From assembly GCA_027020785.1 (NCBI GenBank), contig JALUVI010000069.1, forward strand, positions 1 through 50,972: 50,972 bases of DNA, written 5' to 3'. Positions within the stretch are counted from its first letter, which is position 1. Each line of letters begins with the position of its first letter. Both the position numbers and the translations under genes were made by a program. The stretch comes from Planctomycetota bacterium. Its GTDB lineage: Bacteria; Planctomycetota; UBA1135. Positions 6,703-25,086 of this stretch are shown here, piece after piece. Under the pieces are notes generated by a model that did no database searches, was not told the origin of the DNA, and saw nothing but the letters and a program-made list of their open reading frames with translations.

Positions 6703-7188
6703 ATGCGTCGTTGGGCTCCCCTGACCGTCTCCCTCGCCCTCGCAACCGCCGCAGCCTGGTTCGGCATGCAGGCGTGCGGAAGCCTCGCCGGAGGCCCCGC
6801 CCCGCCCGTCACCGCCACGAGCTGGGCCCTGCCGGCCGACCTCGACCAGCCGCCGGACCCCAATCGGGGCTGGCGCGTCCTCGCCTTCTTCGCCCCCGAT
6901 TGAGGGACGTGCATCCACGAAGTCCCCGACCTCGTGCAGGTCCGGCGGCAATACCGGGATCGCGGCGTGGAAGTGATCGGGCTGACCCGCTCGAGCCGCG
7001 AAGAAGCCATGGCCTTCGCCCGGCGCCATGGCGCCGACTACCCCATCGTCGGCGCGGCCGACGAGGCCTTCCGCGACTACCACGTCTTCTTCGTTCCCGT
7101 GGTCTACCTGGTGAGCCCCTCCGGCATGGTCGAGGCCGACGGCCTGGAGGAGACCCGAACCGTGCTCGCGCGCGAGTTCGGTTCCTAG
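6703..7188 (+). CDS. TlpA/ResA-like periplasmic thiol-disulfide oxidoreductase with a UxxC active site (in-frame TGA 6901-6903 read as selenocysteine)
   Basis: Track ORFs 6661..6903 and 6934..7188 are in the same frame and separated only by TGA. The joined protein reads ...WRVLAFFAPD-U-GTC-IHEVPDLVQVRRQYRDRGVEVIGLT...YHVFFVPVVYLVSPSG. This aligns to the canonical FWATWCGPC...GV.V..V...VP.tflid redoxin pattern. An N-terminal signal peptide is present. Confidence 0.75.
6916..6942 (+). promoter_or_regulatory. candidate SECIS hairpin(s) downstream of UGA 6901
   Basis: Two mutually exclusive folds are possible. One is CACGA(6916-20)/UCGUG(6932-36) with an 11-nt loop carrying GU at +22/+23. The other is GACCU(6928-32)/AGGUC(6938-42) with loop CGUGC. 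Both are less canonical than the other two SECIS elements. Confidence 0.45.
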
Positions 7189-13389: not shown

Positions 13390-14783
13390 CCCGCCCGACC
13401 CGCGTCCTCCTGGTCGGCGACCTCCACCTCGGCCTGCGGCCGCGCCGCCTGCCCGAGCGCGCAGCCGACGCCGACCGACTCGGACCGCGCGAAGCCCTGG
13501 AGCGCATCGTCACGACCGCCCGCGCGCTCGACGTGGACGCCGTCGCCTTCGCCGGCGACCTGATCCATCACCTGGAGGACCGCTTCGAAGCCCTGGGGCC
13601 CCTGAAGGGGGCGTGCCAGCGACTGGCGGAGCGCGGCGTCGTGGCGCTCGCGGTCGCCGGCAACCACGACGCCGTCGCCCTGAATCGCGTCGCCGGACTG
13701 CTCGGCGGCGAGGCCCTCCACGTCCTCGGCGCCGACGGCGGCTGGGAGGCGCGTTCCCTGGAACCGGAGGGCGCGACGGCACTGGAGTTCGTCGGCCGCT
13801 CCTTCGTCCGCGAGCACGAGACCGCGGACCCGATGGCTGCGTTCCCCGAGGCCCTCCGTGGGCCGACCTCGCCCGAGGGCCGGGTCCGCATCGGTCTGCT
13901 CCACACCCAGTTGGACGCCGCCGACGCCCCCTATGCTCCGACCACCCGTGCCGCCCTGGAGGCCACCGGCATGCCCTGGTTCCTGGGGCACGTCCACGAC
14001 CCCTCTCCCCTGTCCGGGTCCCGTCCGGTCGGCTACCTCGGTTCGGCCACCGCGTTGGCCGCCGACGAGTGTGGAGCGCGCGGCCCCTGGCTGGCCACGG
14101 TCGGCCCCGAGGGGTTGCGCGACCTGGTCCAACTGCCCCTGGCGCCGTTGCGTCGGGAACGGCTGGAACTCGACGTCGGCGTGCTGGAGGAGGCCGCCGA
14201 CCCGGTAGCGGAACTGGAGGCCCTGGTGGAGGAAGGGGCGACCCGGATCCTCGAGGCCATCGGCGCGGAAGGGCGCGCGACGATGCAGCGCCTGCTCGAC
14301 GTCGCCCCCGAGGCGGGCTCACTCGAGGAGGCGACCCTCGGCCCCCGCGCGGTCGGCCTGCGCCTGCGCCTGGTCGGCCGGACCCGCCACGCCGTCCGGC
14401 TGCGCGATGCCCTGGAGGCCCAGGGGTCGCTCCGGGAGTACGCCACCCATGGAGGAGGGATCCAGGCCTGGATCCAGAAGGTCGAGGTCGCCTTCGCGCG
14501 GAGCCACGACCTCGAGGAGTTGGCGCGCGGGAACGACCCCATCGCTCTGCTGGCGCGCAAGCTCCTCGCCATCGAGAGCGGCGACGCCGAGGCCGGCGAG
14601 CTGGTCGCCGGCGTCCTGGCCACGCGCCGCGGCGGGTTCGCCCGAGCCTGGCTCGACGCGCTGCCCCGCGGCGAGGGCGACGAACCGGTGGACGTCGAGG
14701 AGGAACTCCGGTCCGCCCTGCTCGAGGCGGGGCAGGAAGCCCTCGACGCGCTGCTGGCCCAGCGCGAGGAGGCCGCGGCATGA
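13386..14783 (+). CDS. SbcD/Mre11-like metallophosphoesterase (YhaO-like)
   Basis: Calcineurin-like motifs VLLVGDLHLG, FAGDL, AGNHD and GHVH. The long C-terminal extension is typical of the YhaO type. Confidence 0.8.
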   Translation: MTRPTRVLLVGDLHLGLRPRRLPERAADADRLGPREALERIVTTARALDVDAVAFAGDLIHHLEDRFEALGPLKGACQRLAERGVVALAVAGNHDAVALNRVAGLLGGEALHVLGADGGWEARSLEPEGATALEFVGRSFVREHETADPMAAFPEALRGPTSPEGRVRIGLLHTQLDAADAPYAPTTRAALEATGMPWFLGHVHDPSPLSGSRPVGYLGSATALAADECGARGPWLATVGPEGLRDLVQLPLAPLRRERLELDVGVLEEAADPVAELEALVEEGATRILEAIGAEGRATMQRLLDVAPEAGSLEEATLGPRAVGLRLRLVGRTRHAVRLRDALEAQGSLREYATHGGGIQAWIQKVEVAFARSHDLEELARGNDPIALLARKLLAIESGDAEAGELVAGVLATRRGGFARAWLDALPRGEGDEPVDVEEELRSALLEAGQEALDALLAQREEAAA

Positions 14784-17443
14784 GGTTCCTCGGTGCCGAG
14801 GTCGCTTCGGCGCACGACCTGCCCCACCCGTTCGGGTTCGCCGACCTGCCGGAGGGAGCCGTCGTCGTCGTCCACGGACCCAACGCCGCCGGCAAGAGCA
14901 CCCTGCTCGCGACCCTGCGCGCCTGCCTGTGGCCGGAGCTCGAGCCGCCTACGGACAAGCGCAAGAAGGCTCCGCTCGCAGCCCGCGGCGTGCGTGCGCG
15001 CATCGTGCTGGAACTGGCGGGGAGGCCCTGGGAAGTGCGCATCGAGGACGGTCGGCGCCGGGTGCTCGACGGGTTCCCGGCCGACCGGTTGCCGCCGGCC
15101 TCCCTGGCGCCGTGCTACCACCTGTCGCTGCGCGACCTGTTCGGTTGGGAGTCGGATGCGCCGCTCGCGGACCGGCTGCGGCGGGCCTGGGCCGGCGGGC
15201 TCGACCTCGACCGCATCCGCAAGGAGCGCTTCGACCACAAGTGGCCCCGCGACGACGCACGGAGGGCCCGAGAGGCGCGCGCCGCCGTCGTCGCGGCGAA
15301 GGACCGCCTCGCGAAGCTGGCGCACGACCTCGAGGAGCTCGAGGACGGCAGCCTGCAGCGCGCTCTGGAGGAGGCCCGACGTCGGGAGCGGCTGCACGAC
15401 GCCCTGACGCGGCGGGCGCAGGAGGTGCGCTCAGCCGCCCGGAAGGCCGCCGCCCTGGGCGGAGAGGCGCGGCGGCTGCGCAGCGAGGCCGACGCCGCCG
15501 CTGCGGCGGTCGGCGCGCCCCCGGAGTGGAACGACGTCTGGCAGGAATGGCTCGGCTCGGCCCGGGCCCGCCGCGAGGGCCTCGACGAGCACGACAAGGC
15601 CGTCGCCGCGGCTCGAGCCCGGGTCGCCGAAGCGGTGGCGGCGCTGCGCGGCGAGGCGCCGGACGACGCCGAACTGCCCGCGCCCGAGGTCCTGGCGGCG
15701 CTGGATCGCGAACTCGAAGCCTTCGCCGAGGCGCGGGCGCGGGCGCAGGCCGCCGCCGCCGAGCGGGAGGCGCTGGAGGCCTCGGTTCCCGCGGCGCGAG
15801 CGGACGCCGATGGGGAAGGCGGCCCCGCCGAAGCGGACCGAGACGGGGTCGCGCGCCTGCTGGAGCTCGCGGTGCGGGAGCACGTGCGCGCCGAGCAGGA
15901 CGCTGGCCCCCCCTCCGGGGCCGCCCGGCGTCGGATCGCGGTGGGCGCCGTGCTCCTGGTGGCCGGCGCCGCCCTCCTGCTCCCGGCCCTCGGGGTCGGG
16001 GGGCCAACGTCGGTGGCCGGACTCGTCGTCGCCACCCTGGCCGCCGTTTGGCTCGTCCTGCGCGGAGGGCGCGCGGGCGACGCCGAGGCGGAGGCGAAGT
16101 CGTGCACGAACACGGCGATCCGCTTGCGTCGCGCCCTGGGAGTCGGCGCCGAGGGCGGCGAGGACGAACTCGCCGAGGCCGCCCATGCACTGTGGCGCCG
16201 GGCCGCCGACGCCACCCTGGCGGAGCGCCAGCAGCACGTGGTCAGCGACCGGCTCCGCAAGCTCCGCCAGGCGGAGGAGGCGGCGGAGCGCGAACTGGCC
16301 CGGGCCCGGGACCGGTGGCGCTCCTGGGCCGAGGAGCACGGCTTCGTCGCCGGCGATGCGCCACTCGCCGTGGCCGAGTGGTTGCGCCGACTCGACGCCC
16401 TGCGGCAGGCGAGGAGCGGACTCCGCGAGGCCGAGGCGCGGCGCGCCGCCGCCGCCGATGCCGCGGCGGACCTGTGGGGGAAGCTCCGCGAGGCGCTCGG
16501 AGGCGCGGAGGATGCCTCACCGGAGATGGTCGAGGCGGCGCTGGCCCGACGCAAGGTGGAACACGAGGCGTGGCGGCAGCGTTCCCGGCGCGCCGAGGAG
16601 GCGGAGGCCCGGGCGGCCCAGGCGGAGGCGAAGTGGGCGGATCTCGAAGCATCGGCCCGCGACCTTCCCGAGGAATTCGGTGATTTTGCCGAATTTTCAT
16701 CCCTGGAGGCGCTAGCCGAGGCCCTCGAGGCCCGTGCCGAGACCCTCGCGGAGGCCGGGAAGCGCTATGCGGAACTCCAGGAGAGGAAGGCCCGGCTGGA
16801 GCGGGATCGGAAGGAGGCGGAGGGGGGACGGGCCCTCGAGGCGGCCGAGGCGGAGGCCGCCCGGCTGGAGGGCGAGGTCACCGAGGAGGCGCGGCGCGTG
16901 CTCCGCGCCGAGGCAGGCGCCCTGCTCCTCGAGCGGGTCGCCACGGACTACGAGCGCGACAACCGGCCCCGGGTGATCGCGCTGGCCGACGAGTTCACCC
17001 GGCGCTTCACCCGGGACCGCTACGGGCTCACCTTCGAGACGCGCGACGGCGGTGTGCCCGTCGCCCTGGACCTGGCCCGCGGCGGCGTCGTGGTCCCCCT
17101 CGAAGCGCTCTCCGACGGGACGCGGGCCCAGGTCCTCTTCGCCCTGCGACTGGCCTTCGTCGCCGCCCAGGAGGAGGAGGTCGGGGTCGAGCCGGCGCCG
17201 CTGTTCCTGGACGAGGTGCTGTCCACCGCCGACCCGGAGCGGTTCCGCGCCGTGGCCGAGGCGGTGGCCACGGAGGCGCGGAGCGGGCGGCAGGTGTTCT
17301 ATGCCACCGCGAACCCGAGCGACCTGGCCGTCTGGCGTGACACGGCCGCGACGGTCGGCGCCGAGCTCGCCGAGGTCGAGATCCCCCACCCGACCCGCGC
17401 GCGGGAGCCGCGCGCGGGCGGTGAGGGAGCGGGCGCTTCCTGA
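14780..17443 (+). CDS. SbcC/Rad50-like AAA ATPase with long coiled coils (YhaN-like)
   Basis: Walker A GPNAAGKST at the N-terminus. Signature LSDGTRAQV and Walker B LFLDEV at the C-terminus. Between them lies an Ala/Arg/Glu-rich coiled coil, with two hydrophobic segments (about 15937-16068) near the middle. Confidence 0.8.
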   Translation: MRFLGAEVASAHDLPHPFGFADLPEGAVVVVHGPNAAGKSTLLATLRACLWPELEPPTDKRKKAPLAARGVRARIVLELAGRPWEVRIEDGRRRVLDGFPADRLPPASLAPCYHLSLRDLFGWESDAPLADRLRRAWAGGLDLDRIRKERFDHKWPRDDARRAREARAAVVAAKDRLAKLAHDLEELEDGSLQRALEEARRRERLHDALTRRAQEVRSAARKAAALGGEARRLRSEADAAAAAVGAPPEWNDVWQEWLGSARARREGLDEHDKAVAAARARVAEAVAALRGEAPDDAELPAPEVLAALDRELEAFAEARARAQAAAAEREALEASVPAARADADGEGGPAEADRDGVARLLELAVREHVRAEQDAGPPSGAARRRIAVGAVLLVAGAALLLPALGVGGPTSVAGLVVATLAAVWLVLRGGRAGDAEAEAKSCTNTAIRLRRALGVGAEGGEDELAEAAHALWRRAADATLAERQQHVVSDRLRKLRQAEEAAERELARARDRWRSWAEEHGFVAGDAPLAVAEWLRRLDALRQARSGLREAEARRAAAADAAADLWGKLREALGGAEDASPEMVEAALARRKVEHEAWRQRSRRAEEAEARAAQAEAKWADLEASARDLPEEFGDFAEFSSLEALAEALEARAETLAEAGKRYAELQERKARLERDRKEAEGGRALEAAEAEAARLEGEVTEEARRVLRAEAGALLLERVATDYERDNRPRVIALADEFTRRFTRDRYGLTFETRDGGVPVALDLARGGVVVPLEALSDGTRAQVLFALRLAFVAAQEEEVGVEPAPLFLDEVLSTADPERFRAVAEAVATEARSGRQVFYATANPSDLAVWRDTAATVGAELAEVEIPHPTRAREPRAGGEGAGAS

Positions 17444-17450
17444 CCCGGGG

Positions 17451-17660
17451 TCAGGCGTTCTGCTTCTTGCAGGTGTTCAGACCGAGCACCTTGTAGAGCG
17501 GTCAGAACCCCACCAAGGCCGTGATCAGGGCGATGGCCCCCACGACCCAGGCCGCCCAGAGCATCCAGCCCTCGGGCTCCTGGAACCAGGCGTAGCCGAC
17601 CAGGGCCAGCCCGACGACGAGACGAAGGGCGCGATCGGCGCCCCCGACGTTGCACTGCAT
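17451..17660 (-). CDS. DUF2892 (YgaP-like transmembrane) protein with selenocysteine replacing the conserved Cys (in-frame TGA at 17504-17502)
   Basis: MQCNVGGADRALRLVVGLALVGYAWFQEPEGWMLWAAWVVGAIALITALVGF-U-PLYKVLGLNTCKKQNA. DUF2892 proteins end with GFCPLY..LG..TC. The track ORF stops at the TGA, but the frame stays open for 16 more family-typical codons. GAGGAGG lies 6 nt upstream of the ATG. Confidence 0.8.
17471..17491 (-). promoter_or_regulatory. SECIS element (fdhF-like) for the DUF2892 gene
   Basis: The mRNA reads AGGUG-C-UC-[GGUCU]-GA-A-CACCU: a 5-bp stem, a C/A mismatch, a 2-bp stem, and apical GGUC at +22..+25 from the U of UGA. This is the same spacing as G23/U24 of E. coli fdhF. 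Confidence 0.7.
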
Positions 17661-17991
17661 CGGAAACCTCCTCGTGAGAAGGACCGGGAGGCCAGGAGGG
17701 ACTCCCCATGTCCATGAGCGTAACCGCCGACCTCGGAAACTGGCCACGCAGACTGTGCTGACCGGAAAAAGGCGTGACCGCAGCCGTCCCGACCCGTCTT
17801 CCTCGGTGTGGAGGCGCAGGATCGGCGCCCCCTCGGGGTGTGAAGCGGCCCCGGAGGGACGCCGCCCACCCCGAGCGAGGCCGGGAGGAGCTCGCGGCGG
17901 AAGGGGTGCGTGCGCGGCAGGCAGCGCCGCGAGGCGGTGGTCCGACGCCGGGGTCCAGAACACCCTGCGCAGCCAGTTTCCGTGCTTGCGG

Positions 17992-24069: not shown

Positions 24070-25086
24070 ATGCCCGTATTCCTCCGTCTGCTCTTCGTCC
24101 TCCTCGCGCCCTTCGCCTGCGCCGGGGCCGCGCGCGCCTCCGCACTGCAGTGACGGCCCGCCCCCGGAGGCGGTCCGCCTCCGAGCTACGCCGGTCCCGG
24201 TGACGCCATGGGCCCCGGCGGCGCCTCTCCCGCCACCCCGGCCGCTCCCGCCGGCCCGGCGACCCCGGCCGCCCCCACCACACCCACCGGCCCCGCCGGC
24301 ACGACCGGCGCCGGCCCGACCACCGGCGGCGGCACCCTGCCGACCGAACACGGCAAGACCGCCAAGACCCTGCTCCGGATGCAGTGGAACTACCCGGTGT
24401 TCCGGCTCCCCGGCGAGGACGCCGTCCCCGAGGAGCGCAGCGGCACCGTGGCCCGGGCGGTGCGCTCGGCCCTGCCGAGGGAACGGGCCTTCCTCGAGCT
24501 CGCCGGCGACGACCGGCGCCCGCTGCTGGTGCTGCGCGAGTGCCTCTGGTGCAACGGCACCGACGACGCACTGTTGAGCCGCACCGAAGACAACGCCCGC
24601 ACCCTCCTCATGGCGCAGTGGTTCCACTGCGTGAAGCTGCCGCCCGACGTACTCGAGGAGGACCACCCGTTCCGCAACGTCTTCGCGGGCGACGACCCGC
24701 CGCACCTGATCCTCTGCGACTGGGACGGCTCCGGCGTCGTCACCCTGAAGGGCGACCAGTCGCGCACCGAACTGTGGGAGGCGATGGAGACCGTCCTCGA
24801 GCGCAACTACGTCGTCGACGTGAAGCGCAAACTGCGCGAGTGGGACCGCCTCATCGCCGACTACGACATGGCCGATGAGGAAGTGCTCCGGCTGGAGGCG
24901 CAGCTCGACCTCGCCATCGAGAAGTACGGGCCCAAGCACGCCAAGGTCCGGAAGTTGCGCAAGCAGCTCGAACGCGCACACGAGGACTTCGACAGGTTGA
25001 AGGCCCGTGAAGAGGAACTGCGCCGTCTCCCGCTGAAGGCCTCCGGCGAGGAGGACACCGCACGGTCCGACCGCGACGCCGGCTGA
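24070..25086 (+). CDS. cassette gene A1: secreted protein with signal peptide, Sec-28, Pro/Ala/Thr-rich linker, thioredoxin-fold CxxC domain and C-terminal coiled coil (TGA 24151-24153 read as selenocysteine)
   Basis: The short ORF MPVFLRLLFVLLAPFACAGAARASALQ* (24070-24153) is in frame with track ORF 24208..25086, and no other stop lies between them. The TGA aligns with Cys in paralog A2 (ASALQ-U-RPAPGGGPPP versus RAAAQ-C-PGPPPPP). Without read-through the protein would lack the signal peptide that A2 has. Confidence 0.7.
24165..24183 (+). promoter_or_regulatory. SECIS element (fdhF-like) for A1
   Basis: CGGAGGC-[GGUCC]-GCCUCCG forms a 7-8 bp perfect stem. Loop residues G24173 and U24174 are +23/+24 from the U of UGA, identical to the E. 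coli fdhF spacing. The Cys paralog has no equivalent hairpin. Confidence 0.75.

What the first reader, a model, noticed from the sequence alone, without database searches (positions are those of the whole stretch)
17451..17660. DUF2892 (YgaP-like TM) protein with Sec replacing the family Cys, plus a near-textbook SECIS
The track ORF ends at TGA 17504-17502 with ...ALITALVGF. The same frame continues PLYKVLGLNTCKKQNA to a second TGA at 17453-17451. DUF2892 proteins characteristically end GFCPLY..LG..TC, so the internal TGA occupies the conserved Cys column (UP...TC).

Downstream the mRNA folds as AGGUG-C-UC-[GGUCU]-GA-A-CACCU, with GGUC at +22..+25. In both spacing and loop sequence this is almost superimposable on fdhF GGUUGCA-GGUC-UGCACC. 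A strong GAGGAGG Shine-Dalgarno sequence precedes the ATG. The gene is only 69 codons long and would be truncated or missed by standard callers.
Basis: partly seen in the sequence, partly recalled or inferred. Interest (0 to 1): 0.75.

Follow-up and report, generated by a model that had tools for sequence, protein, structure and literature searches.

The report
Probable selenocysteine form of DUF2892 protein
A tiny membrane-protein gene in an uncultured marine Planctomycetota bacterium has a UGA codon where its family's one invariant cysteine should be and is most likely read through as selenocysteine, which would add a selenoprotein family absent from the 2026 catalogue I checked, although the organism's selenocysteine machinery could not be checked.

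Summary
On the minus strand, 17660..17451 reads MQCNVGG…ALVGF-TGA-PLYKVLGLNTCKKQNA-TGA. The first TGA (17504-17502) falls on a column that is Cys in 122 of 122 full-length homologs. Reading through it raises the Pfam PF11127 score from 51 to 85 bits and completes the profile.

Six independent assemblies keep the TGA. One comes from a relative whose neighbouring gene is only 48% identical. The TGA and the next 24 nt are invariant in all six, and the frame and final stop are preserved.

A hairpin with a GGUCU loop at +22 fits the bacterial SECIS model and resembles E. coli fdhF. It is weak evidence alone: similar hairpins follow 1-4% of random TGAs here and occur in two Cys-form homologs, and covariation is not significant.

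Independent support comes from the same contig. A TlpA-like thioredoxin-fold gene (6703-7188) has TGA at the first Cys of CxxC, a known selenoprotein type, with purifying selection on both sides.

UGA is otherwise a normal stop. selA, selB, selD and tRNA-Sec are not in the window, and the rest of the genome was unreachable. No other Sec-form lineage was confirmed.

Verdict: probably a real, lineage-restricted selenoprotein that I found in no published catalogue (confidence about 0.7).

The parts
17667..17673 (-). Shine-Dalgarno GAGGAGG, 6 nt upstream of the ATG
   Evidence: Read directly. An AGGAGG core is kept in the diverged relative L013.
17505..17660 (-). First 52 codons of the DUF2892 gene: N-terminal N-x-G-x-x-D-R-x-x-R motif and two transmembrane helices. 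This is the part gene callers annotate.
   Evidence: Translation. Pfam PF11127 gives 51.3 bits for this part alone. It is 47/52 identical between the window and L013, although the neighbouring gene is only 48% identical. An AF2 model of a Cys homolog shows helices 9-28 and 33-52.
17502..17504 (-). In-frame TGA, proposed selenocysteine codon (residue 53)
   Evidence: It aligns with Cys in 122/122 full-length homologs. It is conserved in all six independent assemblies of the lineage.
17454..17501 (-). 16-codon extension PLYKVLGLNTCKKQNA, translated only if the TGA is recoded
   Evidence: It adds 34 bits and completes the Pfam profile. GC at codon positions is 0.50/0.31/0.94. The first 24 nt are invariant in all six sequences. 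L013 keeps the frame through a 3-nt deletion and ends at the same stop.
17451..17453 (-). True stop codon (TGA) of the 69-residue protein
   Evidence: It is conserved in all six sequences.
17471..17491 (-). Candidate bacterial SECIS hairpin AGGUG-C-UC-[GGUCU]-GA-A-CACCU. The loop is at 17479-17483, which is +22..+26 from the U of UGA.
   Evidence: Hairpin energy is -6.2 kcal/mol. In L013 it is a perfect 7-bp stem at -10.4 kcal/mol, because A28->G and A29->G restore or create pairs. It meets the loop, G-position and spacing rules of the bSECIS model. The loop U comes from GGT, a rare Gly codon (7.3%), invariant in all six. It is not specific.
17439..17455 (.). Palindrome CCTGACCC-N-GGGTCAGG containing the stop codons of both convergent genes; a likely bidirectional terminator-like hairpin
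   Evidence: Read directly. It was picked up by the terminator scan.
6703..7188 (+). Supporting feature: a second in-frame-TGA gene, a TlpA/ResA-like thioredoxin-fold lipoprotein with U-G-T-C in place of CxxC. The TGA is at 6901-6903.
   Evidence: Databases split it into 66-aa and 73-aa calls. A related strain keeps the TGA, with pN/pS of 0.06 upstream and 0.16 downstream in one frame.

Best explanation
The locus is a 69-residue selenoprotein gene of the DUF2892 / YgaP-like transmembrane family (Pfam PF11127). The UGA at 17504-17502 is decoded as selenocysteine in place of the family's invariant Cys.

Proposed mechanism (inferred, not shown). A SelB-type elongation factor carrying Sec-tRNA(Sec) binds the hairpin that starts 11 nt after the UGA. 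Its GGUCU loop lies at +22 and is encoded by the Val-Leu-Gly-Leu-Asn-Thr codons. SelB delivers Sec to the ribosome, so translation continues for 16 more codons to the TGA at 17453-17451.

The product is a two-helix membrane hairpin. Both termini lie on the same, probably cytoplasmic, side. The Sec sits immediately after helix 2, next to the conserved N-terminal N..D..R motif.

In E. coli YgaP the equivalent Cys159 lies at the dimer interface, near the thiocyanate-binding site. Cys-form relatives sit in sulfide/persulfide-stress contexts. I therefore infer that the residue is a nucleophilic, redox-active chalcogen centre handling sulfane sulfur or a related species, and that Sec makes it more reactive.

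The gene belongs to an uncultured, 73% GC Planctomycetota lineage.
For: Shown:
1. The TGA lies on a column that is Cys in 122/122 full-length homologs.
2. Readthrough restores the complete family profile: 85.1 vs 51.3 bits, 66/66 vs 51/66 positions. The extension has coding-type composition.
3. The TGA is not an error or a recent lesion. It is present in six independent assemblies from JGI, ENA, Logan and two NCBI MAGs.
4. In the most distant of these (L013) the convergent neighbour is 48% identical, and 57/117 conserved four-fold sites differ. The DUF2892 N-terminus is nevertheless 47/52 identical. The TGA and the next 24 nt are unchanged. All 7 substitutions fall in the last 24 nt. A 3-nt deletion keeps the frame and the stop.
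5. A gene this constrained is not a pseudogene, yet without readthrough it would lack the family's only invariant Cys.
6. A hairpin meets three of the four bSECIS rules (5-nt loop on a 7-bp stem, GG at the first loop positions, 18-nt spacing); the fourth, the -7.5 kcal/mol energy cut-off, is borderline. In L013 two 3'-arm substitutions improve pairing at the cost of an Asn->Gly change. The loop U depends on a rare GGT codon.
7. The same contig carries a TlpA-like gene with TGA at the first Cys of CxxC. UxxC is a catalogued selenoprotein type. A related strain conserves it, with pN/pS 0.06 and 0.16 on the two sides of the TGA. One NCBI MAG, GCA_027000705.1, carries both TGA genes.
8. UGA is an ordinary stop here. 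Most genes end in TGA, and LepA ends at TGA with the same length as its homologs.

Context:
- Some Planctomycetes have complete Sec machinery (PMC4807772).
- DUF2892 genes are H2S-induced in Azospira and sit in an operon with TrxC in Bradyrhizobium.
- The closest Cys form lies next to an ArsR-type regulator, TauE and a metallo-beta-lactamase-fold gene.
- YgaP Cys159 is at the dimer interface near the SCN- site (PMC4730233).
Against: - No selA, selB, selD or tRNA-Sec is present in the 51-kb window or in about 60 kb of related loci. The rest of the genome could not be searched.
- The Sec form was confirmed in only one lineage (all members at least 90% identical in the N-terminal part). A TGA-pattern scan found none in 185,579 GTDB species genomes and only three chance matches in JGI metagenomes. 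Only 1 of the best 120 N-terminal homologs is truncated.
- The hairpin is not discriminating. Its z-score is -0.5. Comparable hairpins follow 1-4% of random TGAs. Cys-form homologs P0013 and P0012 carry essentially the same hairpin. Covariation over 8 sequences is not significant, with 77/500 shuffles as high. No Rfam SECIS family matches.
- The hairpin alone (-6.2 kcal/mol) is above the -7.5 cut-off of the bSECIS model.
- Within the lineage the N-terminal pN/pS is only moderately low (0.24-0.5, few sites).
- There is no experimental evidence.
Confidence: 0.7

Rival explanations
1. Genuine termination. In this lineage the TGA is a real stop and the cell makes a 52-residue protein that lacks the family Cys and C-terminal helix. 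This could be a decaying pseudogene or a neofunctionalised truncated form. The downstream conservation would then reflect an RNA hairpin with some other role.
For: - Every gene caller stops there.
- No Sec machinery was found in the reachable sequence.
- The Sec form is confined to one lineage.
- The hairpin also exists in Cys-form genes, so it could have a Sec-independent function.
- Within-lineage pN/pS of the N-terminal part is up to 0.5.
- The last 24 nt of the extension diverge about as fast as the flanking non-coding DNA.
- Degenerate family members exist in databases, for example P0261 and P0262.
Against: - The 10 nt between the TGA and the hairpin (CCGCUCUACA, encoding Pro-Leu-Tyr) are also invariant and match the family consensus exactly, in lineages whose neutral sites are saturated.
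- The frame and the stop position survive an indel.
- All 7 substitutions avoid the first half of the extension, which has probability about 0.008 if placement were random.
- The N-terminal part is far more conserved than the neighbouring gene (90% vs 48%), so the gene is functional. Yet it would lack the one residue that is invariant in 122/122 relatives.
- A second recoded-looking TGA gene lies on the same contig.
Confidence: 0.14
2. The UGA is read through, but not as selenocysteine. Candidates are near-cognate or suppressor-tRNA insertion of Trp, Cys or Gly, or SelB-dependent insertion of Cys by a tRNA-Cys(UCA)-type system. The second mechanism is recalled from the literature and was not checked here.
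For: - All the comparative evidence shows only that the extension is translated, not which residue is inserted.
- selD and selA were not seen.
Against: - The position is an invariant Cys, which is the classical Cys/Sec pair.
- A hairpin with SECIS geometry is present.
- The companion TlpA-like gene has UxxC, a catalogued Sec motif.
- UGA terminates other genes normally, so general suppression is unlikely.
Confidence: 0.08
3. Artefact: a sequencing or assembly error, or a genome-wide reassignment of UGA.
For: None found.
Against: - The same TGA appears in six assemblies from different samples and pipelines.
- Most genes in the window end in TGA at the expected length.
Confidence: 0.01

Closest known systems
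Cys-containing DUF2892 / YgaP-like TM proteins (Pfam PF11127), including the transmembrane domain of E. coli YgaP
   Same: Full-length profile match. It has the same N-x-G-x-x-D-R-x-x-R motif, a two-helix hairpin and the G-F-[C]-P-L-Y motif after helix 2. In YgaP the equivalent Cys159 sits at the dimer interface near the SCN- site.
   Different: The invariant Cys codon is TGA. It is a stand-alone 69-aa protein with no rhodanese domain. The PDB sequence search with the subfamily profile did not retrieve YgaP.
Bacterial selenoprotein genes with an intragenic SECIS, with E. coli fdhF as archetype
   Same: UGA at a Cys/Sec column. The hairpin starts 11 nt after the UGA. The GGUC loop is at +22..+25.
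   Different: There is no bulged U; a C x A mismatch takes its place. The protein family is unrelated. The hairpin also occurs in Cys-form homologs. SelB binding is untested.
Catalogued membrane or sulfur-handling selenoproteins: YeeE/YedE thiosulfate transporter family, rhodanese-like forms 1-5, MerT-like, SO_0444 transporter (Table 1 of PMC13188914)
   Same: They are small or membrane proteins in which a chalcogen-handling Cys is replaced by Sec. The functional neighbourhood is sulfur or persulfide metabolism.
   Different: There is no sequence relationship. PF11127 is not among the 119 listed families, and no NCBIfam selenoprotein model matches.
Prx-like / TlpA-like thiol:disulfide oxidoreductase selenoproteins (UxxC)
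   Same: This is the family of the second TGA gene in the window (6703-7188). It has UGTC at the CxxC position, a thioredoxin fold and a signal/lipoprotein leader.
   Different: It is not related to the DUF2892 gene. It is relevant only as evidence that the organism decodes UGA as Sec.

Membership tests
Pfam PF11127 YgaP-like_TM (DUF2892) | Profile HMM score above the gathering threshold over the whole domain | tested here: met
   85.1 bits against a 25.3-bit cut-off, profile 1-66/66, with U->C. The truncated form scores 51.3 bits.
Pfam PF11127 YgaP-like_TM (DUF2892) | Invariant N, D and R of the N-terminal motif, and T47/P54/Y56/T63 | tested here: met
   N4, D9 and R13 are invariant in 122 homologs and present here. 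T47, P54, L55, Y56 and T63 are also present.
Pfam PF11127 YgaP-like_TM (DUF2892) | Invariant Cys immediately after the second transmembrane helix | tested here: not met
   The codon is TGA, while 122/122 homologs have Cys. The feature is met only if the TGA is read as Sec, the chemical analogue of Cys.
Pfam PF11127 YgaP-like_TM (DUF2892) | Two-helix membrane hairpin | tested here: inconclusive
   An AF2 model of the Cys homolog P0002 (57% identical) has pLDDT 89 with helices 9-28, 33-52 and 56-61. The window protein itself could not be submitted. Foldseek found no significant PDB match.
Bacterial selenoprotein gene (Sec-UGA plus bSECIS) | In-frame UGA aligned with Cys of homologs, with a conserved ORF continuing downstream | tested here: met
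Bacterial selenoprotein gene (Sec-UGA plus bSECIS) | bSECIS model: 3-9 nt apical loop, 4-16 bp upper stem, G in the first two loop positions, 16-37 nt between UGA and loop (PMC13188914, Fig. 2) | tested here: met
   The loop is GGUCU (5 nt). The stem has 7 bp with one mismatch. The spacing is 18 nt.
Bacterial selenoprotein gene (Sec-UGA plus bSECIS) | bSECIS minimum free energy of -7.5 kcal/mol or lower | tested here: inconclusive
   The hairpin alone gives -6.2 (window) and -10.4 (L013). The +12..+37 segment gives -7.3 and -11.8. The 66-nt context gives -19.1. It is unclear which span the model's cut-off refers to.
Bacterial selenoprotein gene (Sec-UGA plus bSECIS) | [quoted passage not shown] | tested here: inconclusive
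   Six assemblies all belong to one lineage, although L013 is a distinct organism whose neighbouring gene is 48% identical. None was found elsewhere. One unresolved lead is P0286, which ends at the same column.
Bacterial selenoprotein gene (Sec-UGA plus bSECIS) | Covariation supporting the SECIS helix | tested here: inconclusive
   65.6% of cells are paired against 62.6% in shuffles, and 77/500 shuffles reach the observed covariation score. L013 has two pairing-compatible changes.
Bacterial selenoprotein gene (Sec-UGA plus bSECIS) | selA, selB, selD and tRNA-Sec in the same genome | not testable with these tools
   They are absent from the window and from the fetched loci. The rest of the genome was unreachable. 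Indirect support is a second TGA gene of a known Sec family on the contig.
Bacterial selenoprotein gene (Sec-UGA plus bSECIS) | Selenium incorporated at the UGA position | not testable with these tools
   This requires 75Se labelling or mass spectrometry.
E. coli fdhF-type SECIS | GGUC apical loop with G23/U24 at fixed distance from the UGA | tested here: met
   GGUC lies at +22..+25.
E. coli fdhF-type SECIS | Bulged U in the upper stem | tested here: not met
   The window has a C x A mismatch at the corresponding level, and L013 has a continuous stem.

The most novel reading that the evidence does not exclude
The SECIS-like hairpin may predate the selenocysteine. Val-Leu codons (GUG CUN) are complementary to Ser/Asn-Thr codons (AGC/AAC ACN). 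Because of this, the 'CPLYKVLG.xT' subfamily of DUF2892 genes carries a hairpin at the right distance from the Cys codon even in Cys forms (P0013, with the same GGUCU loop; P0012, with a GGGUU loop).

A single TGC->TGA transversion in a Sec-competent Planctomycetota lineage would then have created a working selenoprotein gene at once. That would be a concrete, testable example of how new selenoprotein families are born.

The alternative is that the Cys forms are revertants with fossil SECIS elements, which would imply recurrent Cys<->Sec switching in this family.

Either way, the Sec form marks the invariant Cys of this widespread uncharacterised membrane family as a catalytic redox or chalcogen-transfer centre.
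Probability: 0.25. Interest if true: 0.7.

Novelty: new member of a known kind. Interest (0 to 1): 0.52.

Why it matters
If real, this adds a selenoprotein family that is not among the 119 listed in the 2026 compilation, and one of the smallest: a 69-residue integral membrane protein.

Cys-to-Sec replacement is almost always confined to catalytic, redox-active cysteines. The Sec form therefore gives a functional clue for DUF2892. This is a very widespread family of unknown function, whose members are induced by sulfide and sit next to persulfide-responsive regulators. The clue is that the invariant Cys at the end of helix 2 is the working nucleophile.

The finding also shows that standard gene callers and NCBI annotation truncate this gene to 52 aa in every database copy.

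Finally, the hairpin in Cys-form relatives offers a way to test how SECIS elements arise.

Tried and rejected
- Rfam: gathering and permissive E-value scans of the locus found no SECIS family.
- NCBIfam: no model matches, so none of the curated selenoprotein families applies.
- TGA-pattern scan of GTDB species genomes: 0 hits. The same pattern in JGI metagenomes gave 3 chance hits with no DUF2892 context. In hindsight the pattern required Thr-Cys at +10/+11. Only 39% of family members have that, and L013 itself lacks it, so these negatives are weaker than they look.
- Walking along the 86-kb ENA contig to look for sel genes: two look-ups returned only a short Logan contig. I abandoned this.
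The model of a homolog gave no significant PDB match by fold or by sequence.
- Covariation test: not significant.
- Supplements of deep-Sep and BSepDB: no mention, or not held.
- A strong GGUCC hairpin after the TGA at 24151: I considered it and rejected it as a recoding site. It lies in the spacer after the sulfatase gene.
- An apparent TGA candidate on the minus strand at 14321: rejected because it is antisense to the large AAA/SMC-like gene.
- Genetic-code reassignment: rejected.

Full report
**What is in the sequence**

On the minus strand a GAGGAGG Shine-Dalgarno (17673-17667) precedes an ATG at 17660. The frame reads MQCNVGGADRALRLVVGLALVGYAWFQEPEGWMLWAAWVVGAIALITALVGF, then TGA (17504-17502), then PLYKVLGLNTCKKQNA, then TGA (17453-17451).

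With the first TGA read as Cys, the 69-residue product matches Pfam PF11127 (YgaP-like_TM, DUF2892) over the entire profile at 85.1 bits. The 52-residue call covers only 51 of 66 profile positions at 51.3 bits.

The 16 extra codons have GC of 0.50/0.31/0.94 at codon positions 1/2/3 in a 72.9% GC contig. That is the signature of coding sequence.

**The Cys column**

Fourteen close full-length homologs all read G-F-C-P-L-[YN] at this point. In a wider set of 122 full-length homologs, gathered with an N-terminal-only profile, the column under the TGA is Cys in 122/122. It is one of only four invariant positions, with N4, D9 and R13.

Cys3 is rarer still (12/122).

**Not an error, not recent decay**

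The 52-aa truncated product occurs in four variants within one 90% cluster. They come from JGI (this contig), ENA, Logan and two NCBI MAGs. All six DNA copies keep the TGA and the second TGA.

The most distant copy is L013 (GCA_966195375.1), which comes from a clearly different organism. Its convergent neighbour gene is 48% identical in protein, and 57 of 117 conserved four-fold codons differ, which is saturation for a G/C-restricted third position.

Against that background:
- The DUF2892 N-terminal part is 47/52 identical.
- The TGA and the following 24 nt are unchanged.
- All seven substitutions fall in the last 24 nt.
- A 3-nt deletion preserves the frame and the stop (UPLYKVLGLGTVKEKA*).

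The flanking 5' and 3' non-coding DNA is roughly 25-30% diverged, with indels (my count).

The gene is therefore under selection, and the segment after the TGA, including the ten bases encoding Pro-Leu-Tyr that precede the hairpin, is constrained. A functional family member that lacked the only invariant Cys would be hard to explain. Translation through the TGA explains all of it.

**The hairpin**

The hairpin AGGUG-C-UC-[GGUCU]-GA-A-CACCU (17491-17471) begins 11 nt after the UGA.

It satisfies the published bacterial SECIS constraints on loop size, stem length, G position and the 16-37 nt spacing (PMC13188914). On the -7.5 kcal/mol energy cut-off it is borderline: -6.2 for the hairpin and -7.3 for +12..+37.

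In L013 the 3'-arm changes A28->G and A29->G turn U-A into U.G and the C x A mismatch into C-G. This gives a perfect 7-bp stem (-10.4 kcal/mol) at the cost of an Asn-to-Gly change.

The loop U comes from GGT. That is the only non-G/C-ending codon of the extension and a rare Gly codon here (7.3%). It is invariant in all six copies.

**Why the hairpin is only weak evidence**

- Its folding z-score is -0.5.
- Of 591 TGA triplets in the window, 67% have some hairpin meeting loose bSECIS rules, 3.7% have a GGUC loop, and 1.4% have a GGU loop at spacing 16-20.
- Rfam has no match.
- Cys-form homologs also carry it. P0013 (74% GC) has GUGCUC[GGUCU]GAGCAC (-9.6 kcal/mol) after its TGC, with the same rare GGU codon. 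P0012 (52% GC) has an 8-bp version.
- Four other Cys forms lack it.
- Part of the stem is automatic, because GUG-CUN (Val-Leu) is the reverse complement of AGC-ACN (Ser-Thr).
- A formal pair count over two Sec forms and six Cys forms is not significant.

The hairpin is therefore compatible with a SECIS and necessary for the model, but it does not discriminate. It may be a pre-existing feature that made a TGC->TGA change viable, or a fossil in revertants.

**Does the organism decode Sec?**

The window has one tRNA (Pro) and no selA, selB or selD. The fetched related loci have no tRNA-Sec. The remaining genome could not be reached.

While annotating the contig I found a second in-frame TGA on the plus strand, 6703-7188. 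It encodes a lipoprotein-leader TlpA/ResA-like thioredoxin-fold protein reading …WRVLAFFAPD-U-GTC-IHEVPDL…. The TGA replaces the first Cys of CxxC. UxxC thiol:disulfide oxidoreductases are catalogued selenoproteins.

Databases hold it as separate 66-aa and 73-aa calls. A related strain keeps the TGA. Substitutions on both sides are overwhelmingly synonymous in one frame: pS 0.28 and pN 0.017 upstream, pS 0.18 and pN 0.029 downstream. MAG GCA_027000705.1 carries both TGA genes.

UGA is otherwise a normal stop. Most genes end in TGA, and LepA ends at TGA with the length of its homologs.

LepA places the contig in Planctomycetota: 79% identity to Planctomycetota MAGs and 66% to Engelhardtia mirabilis. 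In that phylum some members have full Sec machinery (PMC4807772).

**How widespread is the Sec form?**

- A DNA pattern for G-[FW..]-TGA-P-L-[YN]…T-C found nothing in 185,579 GTDB species genomes and only three chance matches in JGI metagenomes.
- Of the best 120 hits to an N-terminal profile, only the window's own cluster is truncated.
- A full phmmer pass over 1.84 billion representatives found 42 hits. Two of them end exactly at the G-F column: the window's cluster and P0286, a low-GC Logan singleton whose DNA I could not fetch.

The pattern's Thr-Cys requirement would miss most conceivable Sec forms, so the negative result is soft. As it stands, the Sec form is confirmed in one lineage only.

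**Function (inferred)**

An AF2 model of the nearest Cys form (pLDDT 89) is a two-helix hairpin. The Cys sits immediately after helix 2 and is followed by a short helix. Both termini carry the basic residues, so they probably face the cytoplasm.

In E. coli YgaP, a dimer, the equivalent Cys159 at the C-terminal end of TMH2 lies near the SCN- site, and the two Cys159 approach each other on ligand binding (PMC4730233).

A DUF2892 gene is about 10-fold induced by H2S in Azospira (PMC5358917). Another sits in an operon with TrxC and an FAD oxidoreductase in Bradyrhizobium (PMC6710368).

The closest Cys form to this gene is divergent from an ArsR-type HTH_5 regulator, next to TauE, a metallo-beta-lactamase-fold gene and a BLH-phosphatase-domain gene. 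From my own knowledge, that layout resembles persulfide-responsive BigR/SqrR operons.

Here the gene is divergent from a hemerythrin-like and Tll0287-like pair.

I therefore propose a membrane-anchored nucleophilic chalcogen centre that handles sulfane sulfur or a related species, possibly across a dimer interface. L013 has lost both accessory cysteines (C3S, C64V) while keeping the TGA, so Sec53 does not need an intramolecular Cys partner.

**Novelty**

PF11127, DUF2892 and YgaP do not appear among the 119 prokaryotic selenoprotein families compiled in 2026, nor in the deep-Sep supplements. No paper in the library combines DUF2892 or YgaP with selenoproteins in a relevant way. No NCBIfam model matches.

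The mechanism is the ordinary bacterial one, so this is a new member of a known kind.

**Verdict**

This is probably a genuine, lineage-restricted selenoprotein (confidence about 0.7).
- Shown: the TGA/Cys alignment, the constrained in-frame extension, a compatible hairpin, and a second Sec-type gene on the contig.
- Inferred: SelB-dependent Sec insertion, and the biochemical role.
- Not testable here: the Sec machinery and selenium incorporation.

Noticed in passing
window 6703-7188 (+), TGA at 6901-6903: A second candidate selenoprotein: a TlpA/ResA-like thioredoxin-fold lipoprotein with U-G-T-C in place of CxxC. Databases split it into 66-aa and 73-aa calls. The TGA is kept in a related strain, with purifying selection on both sides. 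Candidate hairpins are GGGAC…GUCCC right after the UGA and GACCU[CGUGC]AGGUC at +28. It lies beside nitroreductase and Cu/Zn superoxide dismutase genes.
   Followed up: partly
L024:3001-3216 (P0013) and L027:1501-1698 (P0012): Cys-form DUF2892 homologs carry a hairpin in the same position after their Cys codon. P0013's is essentially identical: GUGCUC[GGUCU]GAGCAC, including the rare GGU codon. P0012's has a GGGUU loop and differs by a C-G to A-U double change. This could be a proto-SECIS, a fossil SECIS, or another mRNA function.
   Followed up: partly
protein P0286 (Logan singleton, 1105-bp contig; DNA not fetched): An 88-aa call from a low-GC organism ends exactly at the same column (…AAIALITAFSGF). 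It is either a second, independent TGA/Sec form or a contig-end truncation.
   Followed up: no
window 17439-17455: A 17-nt palindrome CCTGACCC-N-GGGTCAGG contains the stop codons of both convergent genes (TGA 17453-17451 on the minus strand, TGA 17441-17443 on the plus strand), only 7 nt apart. It is a terminator-like hairpin shared by the two transcripts.
   Followed up: partly
L013 (GCA_966195375.1) vs window 17451-17660: The DUF2892 gene is far more similar between these two organisms at synonymous sites (5/30 four-fold sites differ) than the adjacent gene (57/117). This suggests nucleotide-level selection on the small gene, or a recent transfer limited to the gene.
   Followed up: partly
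L013:44-250: The diverged TGA form has lost both accessory cysteines at once (Cys3->Ser, Cys64->Val) while keeping the TGA. This hints that Cys3 and Cys64 are linked to each other rather than to residue 53.
   Followed up: no
L021:810-1456 and L022:72-2964: The nearest Cys-form homolog (P0002) is divergently transcribed from an ArsR-type HTH_5 regulator. It lies next to TauE, a metallo-beta-lactamase-fold gene and a BLH-phosphatase-domain gene, a sulfide/persulfide-detoxification-like neighbourhood.
   Followed up: no
L011:1-1816 (GCA_027000705.1 contig 457) vs L010 and L012: The same 52-aa protein and identical 40-nt leader appear with different upstream genes: a same-strand 397-aa gene in L011, but a divergent hemerythrin in L010 and L012. 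This points to a rearrangement or a chimeric MAG contig.
   Followed up: no
window 24151-24190 (+): A very stable hairpin CGGAGGC[GGUCC]GCCUCCG (-12.7 kcal/mol) lies 18 nt after a TGA triplet, in the spacer between the sulfatase gene (ends 24028) and the next gene (starts about 24208). It is probably a terminator, not a recoding site.
   Followed up: partly
window 13613-17443 (+): A very long ORF with only a weak AAA/SMC-like P-loop match is the convergent neighbour. It evolves fast (48% identity to the L013 ortholog). Its function was not examined.
   Followed up: no
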